DNA from: a virus
Taxonomy: Duplodnaviria > Heunggongvirae > Uroviricota > Caudoviricetes
IMG/VR virus record: IMGVR_UViG_2734482553_000012
DNA length: 8,461 nucleotides
Strand: one strand, 5' to 3'
Positions 1 through 8,461 of the stretch are shown here, piece after piece. The notes beneath the pieces are model-generated. The model saw only the letters and a program-made list of their open reading frames with translations, was not told the DNA's origin and searched no databases. How positions within the stretch are numbered: the first letter of the stretch is position 1; the number at the start of each line of letters is the position of its first letter. Both the position numbers and the translations under genes were made by a program.

Positions 1-3000
1 CGCCTGCTGGTTCAGATACAGCGTAACGGTGGCTGGGTGACGGAAAAAGACATCACCATTAAGGGCAAAACCACCTCGCAGTATCTGGTCTCGGTGGTGG
101 TGGATAACCTGCCTCCGCGCCCGTTCAGTATCCGGATGCGCAGGATGACACCGGACAGCACCACAGACCAGCTGCAGAACAAAACGCTCTGGTCGTCATA
201 CACCGAAATCATCGATGTGAAACAGTGCTACCCGAACACTGCACTGGTCGGCGTACAGGTGGACTCGGAGCAGTTCGGCAGCCAGCAGGTGAGTCGTAAT
301 TATCATCTTCGCGGGCGCATTCTGCAGGTGCCGTCGAACTATAACCCGCAGACGCGACAATACAGCGGTATCTGGGACGGAACGTTAAAACCAGCATACA
401 GCAACAACATGGCCTGGTGTCTGTGGGATATGCTGACCCACCCGCGCTACGGCATGGGGAAACGTCTTGGTGCGGCGGATGTGGACAAATGGGCGCTGTA
501 TGTCATCGGCCAGTACTGCGACCAGTCAGNNNNNNNNNNNNNNNNNNNNNNNNNNNNNNNNNNNNNNNNNNNNNNNNNNNNNNNNNNNNNNNNNNNNNNN
601 NNNNNNNNNNNNNNNNNNNNNNNNNNNNNNNNNNNNNNNNNNNNNNNNNNNNNNNNNNNNNNNNNNNNNNNNNNNNNNNNNNNNNNNNNNNNNNNNNNNN
701 NNNNNNNNNNNNNNNNNNNNNNNNNNNNNNNNNNNNNNNNNNNNNNNNNNNNNNNNNNNNNNNNNNNNNNNNNNNNNNNNNNNNNNNNNNNNNTGAACTG
801 GATTGACCCGGATAACGGCTGGGAGACGGCGACAGAGCTTGTGGAGGATACGCAGGCCATTGCCCGTTACGGTCGTAACGTCACGAAGATGGATGCTTTT
901 GGCTGTACCAGCCGGGGGCAGGCACACCGCGCCGGGCTGTGGCTGATTAAAACAGAACTGCTGGAAACGCAGACCGTGGACTTCAGCGTGGGCGCAGAAG
1001 GGCTTCGCCATGTGCCGGGCGATGTCATTGAAATCTGTGATGATGACTATGCGGGTATCAGCATCGGCGGGCGCGTGCTGGCGGTAAACAGCCAGACCCG
1101 GACGCTGACGCTCGACCGTGAAATCACGCTGCCATCCTCCGGTACCATGCTGATAAGCCTGGTTGACGGAAGTGGCAATCCGGTCAGCGTGGAGGTTCAG
1201 TCCGTCACCGACGGCGTGAAGGTGAAAGTGAGCCGTGTTCCTGACGGCGTTGCTGAATACAGCGTGTGGGGGCTGAAGCTGCCGACGTTGCGCCAGCGCC
1301 TGTTCCGCTGTGTGAGTANNNNNNNNNNNNNNNNNNNNNNNNNNNNNNNNNNNNNNNNNNNNNNNNNNNNNNNNNNNNNNNNNNNNNNNNNNNNNNNNNN
1401 NNNNNNNNNNNNNNNNNNNNNNNNNNNNNNNNNNNNNNNNNNNNNNNNNNNNNNNNNNNNNNNNNNNNNNNNNNNNNNNNNNNNNNNNNNNNNNNNNNNN
1501 NNNNNNNNNNNNNNNNNNNNNNNNNNNNNNNNNNNNNNNNNNNNNNNNNNNNNNNNNNNNNNNNNNNNNNNNNNNNNNNNNNNNNNNNNNNNNNNNNNNN
1601 NNNNNNNNNNNNNNNNNNNNNNNNNNNNNNNNNNNNNNNNNNNNNNNNNNNNNNNNNNNNNNNNGCTGACAGTCCGGGCGGTAAATGCCTGGGGACAGCA
1701 GGGCGATCCGGCGTCGGTATCGTTCAGGATTGCCGCACCGGTAGCACCGTCGCGGATTGAGCTGACGCCGGGCTATTTTCAGATAACTGCCACGCCGCAT
1801 CTTGCGGTTTATGATCCGACGGTACAGTTTGAGTTCTGGTTCTCGGAAACGCGGATTACCGATATCAGGCAGGTTGAAACCACAGCCCGCTACCTTGGCG
1901 CGGGGCTGTACTGGATAGCCGCCAGTATCAATATCAAACCGGGCCATGATTATTACTTTTATATCCGCAGTGTGAACACCGTTGGCAAATCGGCATTCGT
2001 GGAGGCCGTCGGTCGGGCGAGCGATGATGCGGAAGGTTACCTGGATTTTTTCAAAGGCAAGATAACCGAATCCCATCTCGGTAAAGAGCTGCTGGAAAAA
2101 GTTGATCTGACGGAGGATAACGCCAGCAGACTGGATGAGTTTTCGAAAGAGTGGAAGGACGCTAACGATAAATGGAATGCGATGTGGGGCGTCAAAATTG
2201 AGCAGACCAAAGACGGCAAACATTATGTCGCGGGTATTGGCCTCAGCATGGAGGACACGGAGGAAGGCAAGCTGAGCCAGTTTCTGGTTGCCGCCAATCG
2301 TATCGCGTTTATTGACCCGGCAAACGGGAATGAAACGCCGATGTTTGTGGCGCAGGGCAACCAGATATTCATGAACGACGTGTTCCTGAAGCGCCTGACA
2401 GCCCCCGCCATTACCAGCGGTGGCAGTCCTCCGGTATTTTCCCTGACATCAGACGGAAAGCTGACCGCTAAAAATGCGGATATCAGTGGTAGTGTGAATG
2501 CGAACTCAGGAACGCTCAACAATGTCACGATTAACCAGAACTGTACGATTAAGGGCATGCTGGAGGCGACCCAGGTCAGAGGGGATTTCGTTAAAGCTGT
2601 ATCAAAAGCCTTCCCGAAAAAAGTCGGTACGTGGGGTAACACGGAAACACCAGACGGTACGGTTACAGTCACCATCAGCGATGATCATAACTTTGACCGC
2701 CAGATTATTATTCCGCCCATTATTTTTAACGGTATAGCGTATGACGATCCGGGGAGCGGAAATAACCCGGGAGGCACGCGATACACGGGTTATGGTTTTG
2801 AAGTTCGCAAAAACGGCGTATTAATCGCATCCAGAGAAACTAAAGGTGCCATTCCCGGTAGTTACAGTGCAGTTATTGATATGCCTAGTGGTGGTGGTAG
2901 CGTCACTCTGGAGTTTAAGATTTTCCAGAAAGGCAATCAGGGGGCAGGCAATATCACCGACTGTACGGTGATTGTGACCAAAAAAGCGGCTTCCGGCATC

Positions 3001-3012
3001 AGTATTCGTTGA
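1..3012 (+). CDS. J: Host-specificity / tail tip protein J (central tail fibre), 5'-partial; start lies upstream of the window
   Basis: Seen: one open frame-1 reading frame from base 1 to TGA at 3010-3012 (the ORF track's 37..3012 is the same frame from its first ATG). From memory of lambda J: visible segments such as [128 protein letters not shown] and [59 protein letters not shown] match lambda J closely. Two N-runs fall inside the gene and keep the frame. Confidence 0.95.
530..793. other. Run of 264 N (masked or unresolved sequence) inside J
   Basis: Seen: uninterrupted n characters. Length is a multiple of 3 and the J frame is the same on both sides; the hidden span (88 codons) matches the distance between the flanking motifs (QYCDQS ... 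[10 protein letters not shown]) as I recall them in lambda J, so the masking appears length-preserving. Confidence 0.99.
1319..1664. other. Run of 346 N (masked or unresolved sequence) inside J
   Basis: Seen: uninterrupted n characters. Together with the partial codons at 1318 and 1665 it spans 116 codons; the J frame is positionally conserved across it (CVS before, [12 protein letters not shown] after). Confidence 0.99.
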
Positions 3013-3034
3013 AATATTTATAACCCCAATAAAT

Positions 3035-3061
3035 GGCGTCAGGAATGACGCCTTTTTTATT
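3035..3061 (+). terminator. Putative rho-independent terminator downstream of J
   Basis: Seen: inverted repeat GGCGTCA (3035-3041) / TGACGCC (3046-3052) with a 4-nt loop GGAA, followed directly by TTTTTTATT (3053-3061), 23 nt after the J stop. Confidence 0.6.
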
Positions 3062-3082
3062 GCAGAAAAGCGAGAGGTAATT

Positions 3083-3893
3083 ATGCGTAAAGTTTGTGCA
3101 GCCATTTTGTCCGCAGCCATTTGCCTGGCCGTATCCGGTGCGCCTGCATGGGCGTCTGAACATCAGTCCACGCTGAGCGCGGGGTATCTTCATGCCCGGA
3201 CCAACGTTCCCGGCAGTGATGATCTGAACGGGATTAACGTGAAATACCGTTATGAGTTTACGGATACGCTGGGGCTGGTGACGTCATTCAGCTATGCAGG
3301 AGACAAGAATCGCCAGCTGACCCGTTACAGCGATACCCGCTGGCATGAAGATTCCGTGCGTAACCGCTGGTTCAGCGTGATGGCGGGGCCGTCTGTGCGC
3401 GTGAATGAATGGTTCAGCGCGTATGCGATGGCGGGTGTGGCTTACAGCCGTGTGTCGACTTTCTCCGGGGATTATCTCCGCGTAACTGACAACAAGGGGA
3501 AAACGCACGACGTGCTGACCGGAAGTGATGACGGTCGCCACAGCAACACGTCTCTGGCGTGGGGAGCTGGCGTGCAGTTTAACCCGACCGAATCCGTGGC
3601 CATTGATATTGCTTATGAAGGCTCCGGCAGTGGCGACTGGCGCACTGACGGTTTCATCGTGGGTGNNNNNNNNNNNNNNNNNNNNNNNNNNNNNNNNNNN
3701 NNNNNNNNNNNNNNNNNNNNNNNNNNNNNNNNNNNNNNNNNNNNNNNNNNNNNNNNNNNNNNNNNNNNNNNNNNNNNNNNNNNNNNNNNNNNNNNNNNNN
3801 NNNNNNNNNNNNNNNNNNNNNNNNNNNNNNNNNNNNNNNNNNNNNNNNNNNNNNNNNGACGGTTTCATCGTGGGTGTCGGTTATAAATTCTGA
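3083..3893 (+). CDS. lom: Lom outer-membrane protein (Ail/Lom/PagC/OmpX family of 8-stranded beta-barrels); reading frame as given is broken near the 3' end by an N-run plus a 19-bp duplication
   Basis: Seen: ATG at 3083 preceded by GAGAGG (3072-3077); N-terminus MRKVCAAILSAAICLAVSGAPAWA-SEHQ looks like a signal peptide. From memory: the visible translation (HQSTLSAGYLHARTNVPGSDDLNGINVKYRYEFTDTLGLVTSFSYAGDKNRQLTRYSDTRWHEDSVRNRWFSVMAGPSVRVNEWFSAYAMAGVAYSRV...DWRTDGFIVG) matches lambda Lom almost residue for residue. Seen: the last codons GVGYKF-TGA (stop 3891-3893) sit in a different positional frame (start mod 3 = 0, versus 2 for the start codon) after the N-run. Confidence 0.85.
3647..3876. 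repeat. 19-bp perfect direct repeat GACGGTTTCATCGTGGGTG (3647-3665 and 3858-3876) flanking a 192-nt N-run inside lom
   Basis: Seen: the identical 19-mer immediately precedes and follows the N-run. N-run plus one repeat copy is 211 nt (not a multiple of 3), which accounts for the lom frameshift. Removing those 211 nt would restore an uninterrupted lom ending ...DGFIVGVGYKF. Confidence 0.9.
3666..3857. other. Run of 192 N (masked or unresolved sequence) inside lom
   Basis: Seen: uninterrupted n characters bounded by the 19-bp direct repeat. Confidence 0.99.
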
Positions 3894-3919
3894 TTAGCCA
3901 GGTAACACAGTGTTATGAC

Positions 3920-3947
3920 AGCCCGCCGGTTCAGGCGGGCTTTTTTG
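3920..3947 (+). terminator. Putative rho-independent terminator downstream of lom
   Basis: Seen: AGCCCGCC (3920-3927) / GGCGGGCT (3934-3941) form a perfect 8-bp GC-rich stem with a 6-nt loop, followed by a T-run (3941-3946), 27 nt after the lom stop. Confidence 0.7.
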
Positions 3948-3957
3948 TGGGGTGAAT

Positions 3958-6900
3958 ATGGCAGTAAAGATTTCAGGTGTACTGAAAGACGGCACAGGAA
4001 AACCGGTACAGAACTGCACAATCCAGCTGAAAGCAAAACGTAACAGCACCACGGTGGTGGTGAACACGCTGGCCTCAGAAAATCCGGATGAAGCCGGGCG
4101 TTACAGCATGGACGTTGAGTACGGTCAGTACAGCGTTATTCTGTTGGTGGAAGGATTCCCGCCGTCACATGCCGGGACCATCACCGTGTATGAAGATTCC
4201 CGACCCGGTACGCTGAATGATTTTCTCGGTGCCATGACGGAGGATGATGCCCGTCCGGAGGCACTGCGCCGTTTTGAGCTGATGGTGGAAGAGGTGGCGC
4301 GTAACGCGTCCGCGGTGGCACAGAACACGGCAGCCGCGAAGAAATCAGCCAGCGATGCCAGCACATCAGCCCGTGAGGCGGCAACCCATGCGACTGATGC
4401 TGCAGATTCAGCACGTGCAGCCAGCACGTCAGCCGGACAGGCCGCTTCGTCGGCTCAGTCAGCGTCTTCCAGCGCAGGAACGGCATCAACAAAGGCCACT
4501 GAAGCCTCAAAAAGTGCTGCCGCTGCAGAGTCCTCAAAAAGCGCGGCGGCTACCAGTGCCGGTGCGGCGAAAACGTTAGAAACGAATGCGGCAGCGTCAC
4601 AACAATCAGCAGCCACTTCTGCATCCACCGCGACCACGAAAGCGTCAGAAGCTGCCACCTCAGCCCGGGATGCGTCGGCTTCAAAAGAGGCGGCAAAATC
4701 ATCAGAAACGAACGCATCATCAAGCGCCAGTAGCGCAGCTTCCTCGGCGACGGCGGCTGCAAATTCTGCGAAGGCGGCCAAAACGTCCGAGACGAACGCC
4801 AGGTCTTCTGAAACGGCAGCGGGACAGAGTGCCTCAGCTGCGGCAGGCTCAAAAACAGCGGCTGCGTCGTCTGCCAGCGCCGCGTCAACAAGTGCCGGGC
4901 AGGCCTCAGCCAGTGCCACCGCCGCCGGAAAATCGGCAGAAAGCGCCGCATCATCCGCTTCAACAGCCACAACGAAGGCTGGCGAAGCCACTGAGCAGGC
5001 CACGGCAGCAGCGAGGTCAGCTTCCGCAGCGAAGACATCCGAAACGAACGCGAAAGCGTCGGAAACCCGTGCAGAATCCTCAAAAACGGCTGCCGCATCG
5101 TCCGCCAGTTCGGCGGCGTCATCGGCATCATCGGCGTCTGCTTCAAAAGATGAGGCGACCAGACAGGCGTCAGCAGCGAAGGGCAGCGCCACGACGGCAT
5201 CCACGAAGGCGACAGAGGCTGCTGGTAGTGCGACGGCAGCAGCTCAGAGCAAAAGTACGGCGGAATCTGCAGCAACGCGCGCTGAGACAGCGGCAAAACG
5301 GGCAGAGGATATTGCATCCGCCGTGGCGCTTGAGGATGCGAGCACGACGAAAAAGGGGATAGTACAGCTCAGTAGTGCGACTAACAGCACTTCCGAGTCA
5401 CTGGCGGCAACACCAAAAGCCGTTAAGGCCGCGTATGACCTGGCTAACGGGAAATACACCGCACAGGATGCAACGACAGCACAGAAAGGGATAATCCAGC
5501 TAAGCAGCGCGACCAACAGCACGTCTGAAACGCTGGCGGCAACGCCAAAGGCAGTAAAAGCAGCCAATGACAATGCTGAGAAACGTCTGCAGAAAGATCA
5601 GAACGGTGCGGATATCCCTGGCAAAGACACCTTTACGAAAAATATTGGTGCCTGCCGTGCCTTCGGTGGGTCAGTAAGCACAACAACAGGAAACTGGACG
5701 ACTGCACAGTTTATCGAGTGGCTGGATTCTCAGGGAGCATTTAACCATCCATACTGGATGTGCAAGGGTTCCTGGTCTTATGGCAATAATAAAATCATTA
5801 CTGATACTGGCTGCGGTAATATTCATCTCGCCGGAGCTGTCATTGAAGTAATGGGGATAAAGTCAGCGATGACGATCCGCATTACCACTCCGACCACATC
5901 CAGCGGTGGCGGAACAACCAACGCCCAGTTTACCTATATTAATCACGGAACAGATTATTCACCTGGCTGGCGAAGGGACTATAACTCCAGAAATAAGCCA
6001 ACGGCATCAGAGATCGGGGCGCTACCGTCAGGTGGAACAGCAGTATCATCAGTTAATCTGGCTTCAAAAGGTCGGGTAGCCGCGCTGACAGACAATACGC
6101 AGGGGGCAGCAGGTCTTGAGTTATACGAGGTGTATAACAACGGATATCCAACAGCGTATGGAAATATCATTCACCTGAAAGGGATGACAGCCGTTGGCGA
6201 AGGTGAGTTACTCATCGGCTGGAGTGGTACAAGCGGTGCTCATGCTCCGGCATTTATTCGTTCACGACGGGATACGACCGACGCAAACTGGTCGCCGTGG
6301 GCGCAGCTTTACACCTCGGCTCATCCTCCTGCAGAGTTTTATCCAGTCGGTGCACCAATCCCGTGGCCATCAGATACCGTTCCGTCTGGTTATGCCCTGA
6401 TGCAGGGGCAGACTTTTGACAAATCTGCTTACCCGAAACTTGCAGCCGCTTATCCGTCAGGCGTGATCCCTGATATGCGTGGCTGGACGATTAAGGGCAA
6501 GCCCGCCAGTGGTCGTGCCGTATTGTCTCAGGAACAGGATGGCATTAAATCGCACACCCACAGCGCCAGCGCATCCAGTACGGATTTGGGGACGAAAACC
6601 ACATCGTCGTTTGATTACGGCACTAAATCCACGAATAACACCGGGGCGCATACGCACAGTCTGAGCGGCTCTACAAGTTCAGCTGGGGCCCACCAACATA
6701 GTCAGACTGGGCCCAGAACGAATAGCGGGAGTCAACCTACTGGAATGTTTCCGGCAGGGAGTACTCAAGTTAGCGGGACTAATCAGGTTGGTATCAGTGG
6801 CTCATTAACCAGTGGCACCTCCCAATGGGTAGGTAAATCATCTTCAGAAGGAAACCATACACACTCACTGTCCGGCACAGCAGCATCTGCGGGTGCACAC

Positions 6901-7041
6901 GCGCATACTGTCGGTATTGGTGCTCATACGCACTCTGTTGCGATTGGTTCACATGGACACACCATCACCGTTAACGCTGCTGGTAACGCGGAAAACACCG
7001 TCAAAAACATCGCATTTAACTATATTGTGAGGCTCGCATAA
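3958..7041 (+). CDS. stf: Side tail fibre protein (Stf-like), about 1027 aa, mosaic: lambda-Stf-like N-terminus, expanded Ala/Ser-rich shaft, tandem tail-fibre repeats, a non-lambda central module and a lambda-Stf-like His-rich C-terminal tip
   Basis: Seen: frame-1 ORF ending at TAA 7039-7041; the ORF track starts at GTG 3952, but ATG 3958 gives [26 protein letters not shown], which matches the lambda Stf N-terminus from memory; GGGGTG lies just upstream. From memory: the C-terminal ~230 residues (GAPIPWPSD...[34 protein letters not shown]...[31 protein letters not shown]) match lambda Stf. Choice of start codon is inference. Confidence 0.92.
4290..5340 (+). repeat. Ala/Ser/Thr-rich low-complexity, internally repetitive region of stf (about 350 codons)
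   Basis: Seen: translation is dominated by A, S, T, K, E with recurring motifs ([44 protein letters not shown]) and the DNA is GC-rich and self-similar. Both antisense frames and an alternative sense frame stay open across it (ORF-track entries 4455..5204 -, 4550..5317 -, 4586..5362 +), a typical low-complexity artefact. Confidence 0.85.
5353..5571 (+). repeat. Tandem duplication of a phage tail-fibre repeat motif inside stf (period 132 nt / 44 aa)
   Basis: Seen: [29 protein letters not shown] (5353-5439) and [29 protein letters not shown] (5485-5571) are nearly identical at the protein level, while the DNA copies differ at many synonymous positions (e.g. CAGCTCAGTAGTGCGACTAACAGCACTTCC vs CAGCTAAGCAGCGCGACCAACAGCACGTCT). 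The motif resembles the conserved phage tail-fibre repeat found in T-even and lambdoid fibres (recollection). Confidence 0.85.
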
Positions 7042-7622
7042 TGGCATTCAGAATGAGTGAACAAGCACGGACCATAAAAATTTATAACCTGCTGGCCGGA
7101 ACTAATGAATTTATTGGTGAAGGTGACGCATATATTCCGCCTCATACAGGTCTGCCTGCAAACAGTACCGATATTGCACCGCCAGATATTCCGGCTGGTT
7201 TCGTGGCTGTTTTCAACAGTGATGAGTCATCGTGGCATCTCGTTGAAGATCATCGGGGTAAAACGGTTTATGACGTGGCTTCCGGCGACGCGTTATTTAT
7301 TTCTGAACTCGGCTCATTACCGGAAAATGTCACCTGGTTATCCCCGGAAGGGGAGTTTCAGAAGTGGAACGGCACAGCCTGGGTGAAGGATACGGAAGCA
7401 GAAAAACTGTTCCGGATCCGGGAGGCGGAAGAAACAAAAAACAGCCTGATGCAGGTAGCCAGTGAGCATATAGCGCCGCTTCAGGATGCTGTGGATCTGG
7501 AGATCGCAACGGAGAAAGAAACCTTGTTGCTGGAAGCTTGGAAAAAGTATCGGGTGTTGCTGAACCGTGTTGATACATCAACTGCACCGGATATTGAATG
7601 GCCAGTAGCACCTATAGGGTAA
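7041..7622 (+). CDS. tfa: Tail fibre assembly protein (Tfa chaperone)
   Basis: Seen: ORF from ATG 7041-7043 to TAA 7620-7622; its start overlaps the stf stop by one base (TAATG at 7039-7043). From memory: translation [62 protein letters not shown]...[26 protein letters not shown] matches lambda Tfa very closely. Confidence 0.93.
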
Positions 7623-7705
7623 ATTCGTAATGATTACCTAAATACGTTATTCTTTTGTTAAAAAAGTGATTTTGCTATAGGTAGGGAGTATGTTCTTGGA
7701 TTAAG

Positions 7706-7738
7706 AATAAAAAATCGCCATGAAAGAGCTTCATGGCG
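7706..7738 (-). terminator. Putative rho-independent terminator readable on the minus strand
   Basis: Seen: perfect 9-bp inverted repeat CGCCATGAA (7716-7724) / TTCATGGCG (7730-7738) with a 5-nt loop; on the + strand it is preceded by AATAAAAAAT (7706-7715), so on the minus strand the hairpin is followed by ATTTTTTATT. No T-run follows it on the + strand. Confidence 0.45.
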
Positions 7739-8068
7739 AGTACATAAACGTACAAAATGTGATGAAAGTAGAGTGGCGTAAGCCACTATATTAAGATATG
7801 ACAATAGCGAAGAAAAGTAAATAACATTTTATGGACGTTTAATTGTTAATTATAAAAACTAGAGTGCCCGATATTGTTTATCTTGCTTTAAAATAATGTA
7901 CTCAAACCAAATTTTTGAGCTAAAAGCTCAAATAATATAAATGCAATAATAATGTTTAATAAGACAATTAGCTTGCTTTGTATTTTCATTTCGGAATACT
8001 GTTAAGTAACTTTGATGACCCTAACAATAGATCGGAATTTTCTTAGAGTCAATGGTCACTGTTTTTGC

Positions 8069-8098
8069 TTGCAAAGCAAATGTTTTGGTGGTTATAAG
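8069..8098 (+). promoter_or_regulatory. Sigma70-like promoter candidate (TTGCAA - 18 bp - TATAAG)
   Basis: Seen: TTGCAA at 8069-8074 and TATAAG at 8093-8098, separated by 18 bp, in AT-rich DNA. Pattern match only; AT-rich sequence produces many such matches by chance. Confidence 0.2.
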
Positions 8099-8371
8099 TC
8101 GTCTTAATATAGTCACGCATGCAACTTGTTCCATGCGGAGATTAAAGATTGGAATATAACGCGAAGATGGAATTAAATTACATTTGCAATAATTAATTTA
8201 TTATTACTCAATAATTACCGATATTATTATTGTAAATTAATCATTAGAATGCAAAAAGAAATGTAACGGCAAAATAAGAGGACGATAGCTGAGAAAAAAG
8301 CGTGCTTTCCCAATCTGGGGCAAATCACGTCTGAATGACACCTGAAAACAGGTGGTAGCCTCAAGAAGGCT

Positions 8372-8394
8372 GGTGATGCTGCCAACTTACTGAT
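8372..8394 (+). repeat. IS1 left terminal inverted repeat (IRL)
   Basis: From memory: GGTGATGCTGCCAACTTACTGAT is the canonical 23-bp IS1 terminal inverted repeat. The 9 bp just outside it (8363-8371, AAGAAGGCT) would be the target-site duplication if this is a simple insertion; the other copy would lie beyond the window. Confidence 0.85.
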
Positions 8395-8426
8395 TTAGTG
8401 TATGATGGTGTTTTTGAGGTGCTCCA

Positions 8427-8461
8427 GTGGCTTCTGTTTCTATCAGCTGTCCCTCCTGTTC
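8427..8461 (+). CDS. insA: IS1 InsA (transposition regulator), 5'-partial fragment with GTG start
   Basis: Seen: GTG at 8427 followed by GCT TCT GTT TCT ATC AGC TGT CCC TCC TGT, translating to (M)ASVSISCPSC. From memory: this is the InsA N-terminus, and insA is known to start with GTG. Runs off the window end. Confidence 0.85.
   Translation, partial: MASVSISCPSC

What the first reader, a model, noticed from the sequence alone, without database searches (positions are those of the whole stretch)
8363..8461. IS1 inserted immediately downstream of the tail-fibre module; possible prophage truncation or rearrangement point
The IS1 left inverted repeat begins at 8372, with insA reading away from the phage genes. 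IS elements at prophage borders or interiors often mark truncation, inversion or deletion of phage DNA, so whatever lay downstream of tfa in the ancestral phage may have been lost or moved. The 9 bp just outside the repeat (AAGAAGGCT, 8363-8371) is the expected target duplication for a simple insertion; if it is absent at the far end, the IS mediated a rearrangement.
Basis: partly seen in the sequence, partly recalled or inferred. Interest (0 to 1): 0.45.

Follow-up and report, generated by a model that had tools for sequence, protein, structure and literature searches.

The report
IS1 copy with small adjacent deletion
The last 90 bases of the window are the left end of an ordinary IS1 insertion sequence in the accessory DNA behind a Shigella/E. 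coli prophage's tail-fibre genes; in complete genomes it lacks a target duplication because about 0.7 kb of mostly non-coding DNA beside it was deleted, a routine event that leaves the prophage's downstream DNA in place.

Summary
Window 8372-8461 is the first 90 bp of IS1: the left inverted repeat, the insA promoter region, and insA starting with GTG at 8427 and reading rightward. AAGAAGGCT (8363-8371) is the 9 bp outside it. The IS1 is not immediately after tfa; a 749-bp AT-rich spacer lies between them.

The window stops inside IS1, so I read the far end from Shigella sonnei chromosomes that are 100% identical to window 3858-8461. There the IS1 is a complete 768 bp and its right flank is AATTGGGTG, so there is no target duplication. 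An IS1-free E. coli allele (NCTC9104) shows that 741 bp was lost. The lost DNA holds a tRNA-Ser 3' fragment and the upstream region of a YdeO/GadX-like (probably PatE-type) AraC regulator gene.

A second allele has the same left junction but has lost only 550 bp. Both alleles share a private base in the right inverted repeat. This fits one IS1 whose right end made successive adjacent deletions.

The same DNA continues after the IS1 (regulator gene, IS fragments, intS, argW), so no phage genes are lost. In one E. coli strain this IS1 also took part in a 2.25-Mb inversion.

This is ordinary, already annotated IS1 biology and of low interest.

The parts
8372..8461 (+). Left end of IS1 (first 90 of 768 bp): left inverted repeat, insA promoter region and first 11 codons of insA
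   Evidence: 90/90 identity to complete IS1 copies. The matching places are annotated IS1A-family transposase in RefSeq.
8372..8394 (+). IS1 left terminal inverted repeat (about 23 bp, imperfect), GGTGATGCTGCCAACTTACTGAT
   Evidence: Read directly. It pairs with the right repeat GGTAATGACTC(C/G)AACTTATTGAT of the complete copy in L001 and L010.
8379..8406 (+). Sigma-70-like promoter match inside the left repeat (CTGCCA-16-TATGAT), positioned to drive insA
   Evidence: Consensus scan. Function is inferred from established knowledge of IS1 and was not tested.
8427..8461 (+). Start of insA (GTG; MASVSISCPSC...), cut by the window end
   Evidence: Offset 55 from the IS1 start equals the annotated CDS start in L001. 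Pfam Zn_ribbon_InsA, HTH_Tnp_IS1 and DDE_Tnp_IS1 hit the full genes in S. sonnei loci.
8363..8371 (.). 9 bp abutting the left repeat (AAGAAGGCT); not duplicated at the far end of IS1
   Evidence: It occurs once in each of three S. sonnei loci checked (L010, L012, L013), with no reverse-complement copy. Right flanks are AATTGGGTG or CTTATTGGC.
7623..8371 (.). 749-bp AT-rich spacer (31.5% G+C) between tfa and IS1, with no annotated gene; it is the intact left flank of the deletion
   Evidence: It is colinear with the IS1-free allele L005 8653-9400. The uninterrupted continuation across the breakpoint is present in 829 genomes.
7041..7622 (+). Tail-fibre assembly gene tfa (context)
   Evidence: Pfam Caudo_TAP, E = 4.6e-44.
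3958..7041 (+). Side tail-fibre gene stf (context); its exact protein was used to locate the S. sonnei loci
   Evidence: Pfam phage_tail_N, Phage_fiber_2 and Collar. Exact product found in S. sonnei chromosomes.

Best explanation
The window ends in the left end of a complete, ordinary IS1 element. IS1 is 768 bp and encodes insA and insB', which produce a DDE transposase by -1 frameshifting. This copy sits in AT-rich accessory DNA between the tail-fibre assembly gene of a lambdoid prophage and a YdeO/GadX-like AraC-family regulator gene. The lineage is Shigella sonnei or a very close relative. The most likely history is as follows. IS1 inserted once at ...AAGAAGGCT. Then its right end attacked nearby AT-rich targets on the same molecule (intramolecular transposition). 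This deleted the DNA between the IS1 terminus and the new target, along with the right-hand copy of the target duplication. One allele lost 550 bp (A). The allele expected in the window's source lost 741 bp (B) and places the right IS1 end 15 bp upstream of the regulator's ATG. Shown: the identity of the IS1 end; the absence of a duplication; the exact breakpoints; the missing DNA; and colinearity after the IS1. Inferred: that the window's own source has allele B; the order of events; and the transposition mechanism. The consequence is small. The lost DNA is a relic tRNA-Ser 3' fragment plus the native upstream region of the regulator gene. In S. sonnei that gene is also inactivated by a 1-bp frameshift. 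The confidence given (0.65) is for the whole statement including the mechanism. That this is an IS1 end is about 0.99, and that the copy lacks a duplication because flanking DNA was deleted is about 0.85.
For: IS1 identity. Far end: S. sonnei chromosomes L010, L011, L013 and L015 are 100% identical to window 3858-8461. They carry a 768-bp IS1 with left flank AAGAAGGCT and right flank AATTGGGTG. Missing DNA: the IS1-free allele in E. coli NCTC9104 (L005) continues from ...AAGAAGGCT through 550 bp to CTTATTGGC and 741 bp to AATTGGGTG. Polarity: the uninterrupted sequence across the left breakpoint is in 829 of 5,426 complete genomes, against 79 with the IS1 left junction. Controls: perfect 9-bp duplications flank four other IS1 copies (GAAACGTTG, AGGTATAGT, TACCTAATG, CATGTTCAG). 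Nested deletions: alleles A and B share the left junction to the base and differ only at the right. One copy of origin: all E. coli focal copies of both alleles (L001, L002, L007, L008, L009, and L027 from IMG/VR) carry a private C, 12 bp from the right terminus, that every unrelated IS1 lacks. A crossover with a second IS1 would have replaced that base. No intermediate with a duplication exists in 5,426 genomes. Literature: IS1 is 768 bp and makes 8-9-bp duplications (PMC12428005). Adjacent deletions start exactly at an element terminus, end at variable distances, and are documented for IS1/Tn9 (PMC9330008). IS1 is the most abundant IS in Shigella, and IS are linked there to deletions (PMC7373316).
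Against: The window does not contain the right end of IS1, so the state in its own source genome is inferred from identical relatives. Window 1-3665 (J-lom) is only 91-97% identical to those same S. sonnei loci, so the source is not one of them. The S. sonnei focal IS1 lacks the private right-repeat base. It is 0-1 differences from another S. sonnei IS1. This requires gene conversion among the many S. sonnei copies, or an independent origin of the same two breakpoints. Junction counts are imperfect: the left junction is in 79 genomes but the allele-A right junction is in 101. The transposition mechanism itself cannot be shown from sequence.
Confidence: 0.65

Rival explanations
1. Two independent IS1 copies inserted in direct orientation, one at ...AAGAAGGCT and one about 0.55-0.74 kb to the right. 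Homologous recombination between them then deleted the interval. This left one hybrid IS1 flanked by one half of each duplication.
For: It also predicts an intact IS1 without a duplication and colinear flanks. The region takes repeated IS1 hits: a simple insertion with duplication CATGTTCAG lies 25 bp from the allele-B breakpoint in another strain (L020), and a further configuration exists in L006. IS1-IS1 recombination involving this very copy is demonstrated by the STEC409 inversion. Deletions between homologous IS copies are described for Shigella (PMC7373316).
Against: No genome among 5,426 has a single IS1 with its own duplication at the left site or at the allele-A right site. E. coli allele-A and allele-B copies share a private base 12 bp from the right terminus. 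A hybrid with a second, canonical IS1 would retain that base only if the crossover fell in the last 11 bp.
Confidence: 0.25
2. A simple IS1 insertion whose target duplication has since decayed by point mutation; nothing was deleted.
For: The focal E. coli copy is old enough to have private substitutions.
Against: The flanks share no residual similarity (AAGAAGGCT against AATTGGGTG or CTTATTGGC). They map 741 or 550 bp apart on the IS1-free allele. That allele's continuation across the left breakpoint is in 829 genomes.
Confidence: 0.01
3. In the window's own source genome, this IS1 is the breakpoint of a large rearrangement (inversion or translocation by recombination with a distant IS1). The DNA to its right would then be unrelated to the prophage.
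For: This has happened in E. coli STEC409. There the left junction is followed by IS1 and a truncated htrE at 1.41 Mb, and the right junction sits at 3.66 Mb on the other strand. More genomes have the right junction than the left (101 against 79). S. sonnei is IS1-rich and prone to rearrangement (PMC7373316; abstract of PMC8072062). The source's J-lom region differs from the S. sonnei genomes examined.
Against: All six complete S. sonnei chromosomes sampled have the two junctions contiguous around one 768-bp IS1. Four of them are 100% identical to the window over 4.6 kb.
Confidence: 0.08

Closest known systems
IS1 (IS1 family; IS1A-type copies of E. coli and Shigella)
   Same: The terminal repeat, the insA start and the 768-bp length in identical relatives all match. 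So do the InsA zinc-ribbon, HTH and DDE domains and the programmed frameshift annotation. It is 0-1 differences from another S. sonnei IS1 copy.
   Different: This copy has no flanking 8-9-bp target duplication. E. coli versions of this copy carry a private substitution in the right inverted repeat, and some carry a 1-bp frameshift.
IS1-mediated adjacent deletions (classically described in the E. coli gal region and for Tn9; reviewed in PMC9330008)
   Same: The deletion starts exactly at an IS terminus, and the IS stays intact. One junction is fixed while the distal endpoints vary (550 and 741 bp) and fall in AT-rich DNA.
   Different: It is inferred here from comparative genomics and was not observed experimentally. 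The distal endpoints cluster just upstream of one regulator gene.
Prophage-borne AraC/XylS regulators of acid resistance and type III secretion (AppY of DLP12; PatE, PsrA and PsrB of O157:H7)
   Same: The gene to the right of the IS1 encodes a 247-aa YdeO/GadX-like protein carried at the tail-fibre end of prophages. An allele about 98.5% identical lies in O157:H7 next to an e14-like prophage. This fits the description of PatE (z0321, OI-8) in PMC10877973 and the class described in PMC10057817.
   Different: Equivalence to PatE was not verified by locus tag or protein sequence. In S. sonnei the gene is frameshifted and its upstream region is replaced by IS1.

Membership tests
IS1 insertion sequence | Characteristic imperfect terminal inverted repeat starting GGTGATGCTGCCAACTTACTGAT | tested here: met
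   Window 8372-8394; identical to complete IS1 copies.
IS1 insertion sequence | Total length of 768 bp with a matching right inverted repeat | tested here: met
   Not within the window. In S. sonnei loci identical to window 3858-8461 the element spans 768 bp (L010 14415-15182) and ends ...GTTGGAGTCATTACC.
IS1 insertion sequence | insA followed by insB', with a programmed -1 frameshift giving a DDE transposase | tested here: met
   The insA start is in the window (8427). Full genes in relatives hit Zn_ribbon_InsA, HTH_Tnp_IS1 and DDE_Tnp_IS1. RefSeq notes 'programmed frameshift'. The A6C motif TTAAAAAACTC is visible in L001.
IS1 insertion sequence | 8-9-bp direct duplication of the target at both ends, the signature of a simple insertion | tested here: not met
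   The left flank is AAGAAGGCT and the right flank is AATTGGGTG or CTTATTGGC. This does not affect membership of IS1; it shows a secondary deletion. Four control IS1 copies meet the feature.
IS-mediated adjacent deletion | Deleted DNA begins exactly at an IS terminus and the IS is retained intact | tested here: met
   Alignment of IS1-bearing and IS1-free alleles; breakpoints at L005 9400|9951 and 9400|10142.
IS-mediated adjacent deletion | A nested series sharing one junction, made by the same IS copy | tested here: met
   Alleles A and B share the left junction. The E. coli copies of both share a private right-repeat base. The S. sonnei copy lacks it, which leaves some doubt.
IS-mediated adjacent deletion | Produced by intramolecular transposition rather than by recombination between two IS copies | not testable with these tools
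   Only indirect evidence is available: no two-IS intermediates in 5,426 genomes.
   Pfam hits to GpJ domains, Ail_Lom, phage_tail_N/Phage_fiber_2/Collar and Caudo_TAP. The same order is annotated in relatives.

The most novel reading that the evidence does not exclude
The roughly 250 bp upstream of this prophage-borne PatE-like regulator gene may be a recurrent IS1 target under selection rather than a neutral graveyard. At least five distinct IS1 configurations end within it or at the gene's first codons: right breakpoints at L005 9951, 10142 and 10164, a simple insertion at 10167-10175, and an inversion that uses the same copy. IS1 would be replacing an AT-rich, presumably H-NS-silenced promoter. 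This would rewire the regulator where the gene stays intact (for example E. coli Res13, with the IS1 end 15 bp from the ATG) and help silence it in S. sonnei. It would parallel IS activation of bgl.
Probability: 0.12. Interest if true: 0.35.

Novelty: already known. Interest (0 to 1): 0.1.

Why it matters
It matters little beyond correct annotation. The result identifies the sequence at the window's end as an IS1 end, inside which at least ten draft contigs with this junction break. It shows that the prophage is not truncated at this point. It also documents a textbook IS1 adjacent deletion that removed the upstream region of a PatE-like regulator gene, which is a pseudogene in S. sonnei anyway. 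It is a small, concrete example of how IS1 erodes and reshuffles prophage accessory DNA in Shigella and IS1-rich E. coli. Anyone studying prophage-borne AraC regulators should know that this gene's promoter region differs between strains because of IS1.

Tried and rejected
1. Exact-junction search in GTDB species-representative genomes found nothing.
2. Exact-protein look-up of the 267-aa 'Lom' ORF found nothing. The ORF reads through a run of N and is not real.
3. I first read the N run in lom as a scaffold join. I then found three N runs whose lengths roughly match homologous sequence, so they could be masking or sized gaps. I withdrew the scaffold claim.
4. A junction query for counting allele B in E. 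coli was confounded because the tool joins pieces up to 600 bp apart, so allele-A genomes also scored 100%. No clean allele-B count was obtained.
5. The lambda att core GCTTTTTTATACTAA was not found in any locus. The prophage at the ybhB site does not use the canonical lambda core, or the core is not exact.
6. ARAGORN found no intact tRNA in the deleted segment. Rfam shows only a tRNA-like T-arm fragment.
7. Pfam and PHROGs gave nothing for the small ORFs in the spacer.
8. The PatE paper (PMC3416394) is not held, so PatE equivalence rests on a review and on genomic context.
9. Decay of a duplication by point mutation was considered and rejected.

Full report
What is in the window. Window 8372-8461 reads GGTGATGCTGCCAACTTACTGATTTAGTG...GTGGCTTCTGTTTCTATCAGCTGTCCCTCCTGTTC. 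It is 90/90 identical to the first 90 bp of complete 768-bp IS1 copies. It matches places annotated 'IS1-like element IS1A family transposase' in more than 9,000 E. coli records. The left inverted repeat starts at 8372. A promoter-like site lies inside it at 8379-8406. insA starts with GTG at 8427 and reads rightward. The 9 bp outside the repeat are AAGAAGGCT (8363-8371). One detail is off: tfa stops at 7622, and a 749-bp spacer with 31.5% G+C and no annotated gene separates it from IS1. Upstream are J, lom, stf and tfa (Pfam).

Where the window comes from. No complete E. coli genome matches the right end better than 99.5%. The exact Stf protein is encoded in Shigella sonnei chromosomes. Window 3858-8461 is 100% identical to four of them (L010, L011, L013, L015). 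The J-lom part (1-3665) is only 91-97% identical to those loci, so the source is a close relative and not one of these genomes. The window holds three runs of N. An IMG/VR contig (L035) is 100% identical over 3858-8461 and ends exactly 90 bp into IS1, as the window does. Nine other draft contigs with this junction break 19-98 bp into the IS1. The far end of the IS1 therefore has to be read from complete genomes.

The far end. In all six complete S. sonnei loci the IS1 is 768 bp. Its left flank is AAGAAGGCT and its right flank is AATTGGGTGGATGATATG..., so there is no target duplication. AAGAAGGCT occurs only once in each of the three S. sonnei loci checked (L010, L012, L013), in either orientation. 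In E. coli relatives with the same left junction, the right flank is CTTATTGGC (L001, L002, L007, L008) or AATTGGGTG (L009). The method does detect duplications where they exist. Four unrelated IS1 copies in the same loci are flanked by perfect 9-bp repeats: GAAACGTTG, AGGTATAGT, TACCTAATG and CATGTTCAG.

What was lost. E. coli NCTC9104 (L005) has the same tfa-spacer-regulator neighbourhood without this IS1. Its sequence continues from ...AAGAAGGCT for 550 bp to CTTATTGGC and for 741 bp to AATTGGGTG. The IS1 therefore replaces 550 bp in allele A and 741 bp in allele B, the S. sonnei type. The uninterrupted sequence across the left breakpoint is present in 829 of 5,426 complete E. coli genomes. 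The IS1 left junction is in 79, and the allele-A right junction is in 101. The IS1-free state is therefore ancestral. The lost DNA holds the 3' half of a tRNA-Ser-like sequence, with no intact tRNA. It also holds the region upstream of an AraC-family gene. In allele B the IS1 right end lies 15 bp before that gene's ATG.

What continues after the IS1. Homology between the S. sonnei and E. coli loci resumes directly after the IS1 at 99.7% identity. It runs through the AraC-family gene and two IS fragments. Beyond those, S. sonnei has intS, argW (tRNA-Arg CCT), yfdC and mlaA. Most E. coli relatives have an 84-bp remnant of that integrase gene and then ybhB-bioA. The IS1 is thus interior to the accessory region, 2-3 kb from the chromosomal boundary. 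No phage structural gene is missing. The regulator is YdeO/GadX-like. An allele about 98.5% identical lies beside an e14-like prophage in O157:H7. This fits PatE (z0321, OI-8) as described in PMC10877973, but I could not verify the equivalence. In S. sonnei the gene carries a 1-bp frameshift.

How it most likely happened. Alleles A and B share the left junction to the base and differ only on the right. Every E. coli focal copy of either allele carries a private C located 12 bp from the right terminus. This includes an IMG/VR copy on a flank only 97.3% identical to the window. All unrelated IS1 copies have G at that position. Recombination with a second IS1 would have replaced that base unless the crossover fell in the last 11 bp. 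No genome keeps a single IS1 with its own duplication at the left site or at the allele-A right site. These facts fit one IS1 whose right end made successive adjacent deletions by intramolecular transposition. Such deletions begin exactly at a terminus, end at variable distances, and are documented for IS1/Tn9 (PMC9330008). IS1 is 768 bp and normally makes 8-9-bp duplications (PMC12428005). The mechanism is inferred, not shown. The S. sonnei focal copy lacks the private base and is nearly identical to another S. sonnei IS1. That requires gene conversion among the many IS1 copies of this species (PMC7373316), or an independent origin.

Other events at the same place. L006 has different breakpoints on both sides. 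L020 has a simple IS1 insertion 25 bp from the allele-B breakpoint, in another prophage context. In STEC409 the focal IS1 recombined with an IS1 in htrE and inverted about 2.25 Mb. This AT-rich stretch is thus hit repeatedly by IS1. I did not test whether that reflects target preference or selection.

Verdict. This is a known element doing a known thing, and the IS1 is already annotated at this locus in public genomes. Interest is low.

Noticed in passing
window 530-793, 1319-1664, 3666-3857: There are three runs of N inside J and lom. The first two are about as long as the homologous S. sonnei sequence. The third is flanked on both sides by the same 19-mer, GACGGTTTCATCGTGGGTG. ORFs listed across them, such as the 991-aa J fragment and the 267-aa 'Lom', read through N and are unreliable.
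   Followed up: partly
window 1-3665 compared with 3858-8461: The right 4.6 kb is 100% identical to S. sonnei chromosomes, but the J-lom part is only 91-97% identical to the same loci. The source either has a different J allele, for example through recombination among prophages, or is a mixed assembly.
   Followed up: partly
window 7888-7989 (minus strand): A 33-aa hydrophobic ORF (MKIQSKLIVLLNIIIAFILFELLAQKFGLSTLF) overlaps a weak terminator-like hairpin. It is intact in all 19 loci that hold this spacer. The only change is one synonymous substitution in relatives that are 95.5% identical around it. It has no Pfam or PHROGs match and is not annotated in RefSeq. It could be a small membrane peptide.
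   Followed up: partly
window 7384-7582 (+), inside tfa: A full-length match to Rfam RF02111 (IS009, an E. coli sRNA candidate) scores 218 bits against a gathering score of 117. It lies wholly within the tfa coding sequence.
   Followed up: no
L005 9508-9576 (NCTC9104), within the DNA lost from the window's lineage: This is the 3' half of a tRNA-Ser-like sequence ending ...GGTTCAAATCCCCCTCTCTCCGCCA. It is probably a fossil attachment-site remnant. Homology to another prophage context (L020) begins at almost the same point (L005 9511). This suggests the fragment and the AraC regulator gene travel together as a module.
   Followed up: partly
L010 15198-15942 (S. sonnei), just right of the IS1: The YdeO/GadX-like AraC-family gene, which is probably PatE-type, has a 1-bp deletion near nucleotide 411 and is a pseudogene in S. 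sonnei. It is intact in the E. coli relatives.
   Followed up: yes
L022 and L023 (E. coli STEC409, 1.41 Mb and 3.66 Mb): The focal IS1 and an IS1 inserted in the fimbrial usher gene htrE have recombined, inverting about 2.25 Mb. Each junction now has half of htrE on one side.
   Followed up: yes
L001 12194-12277 compared with L010 16644-17801: E. coli loci at the ybhB site keep only the last 84 bp of an intS-type integrase gene, abutting an IS fragment. S. sonnei and STEC409 have the whole gene next to argW. This marks an older IS-associated rearrangement that joined a lambdoid right arm to an argW-type integrase end.
   Followed up: partly
L012, L018, L019 (S. sonnei 53G and two draft contigs), corresponding to window 7165-7227: A deletion of about 65 bp inside tfa shortens the called product to 150 aa in these strains. 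The window has the undeleted form.
   Followed up: no
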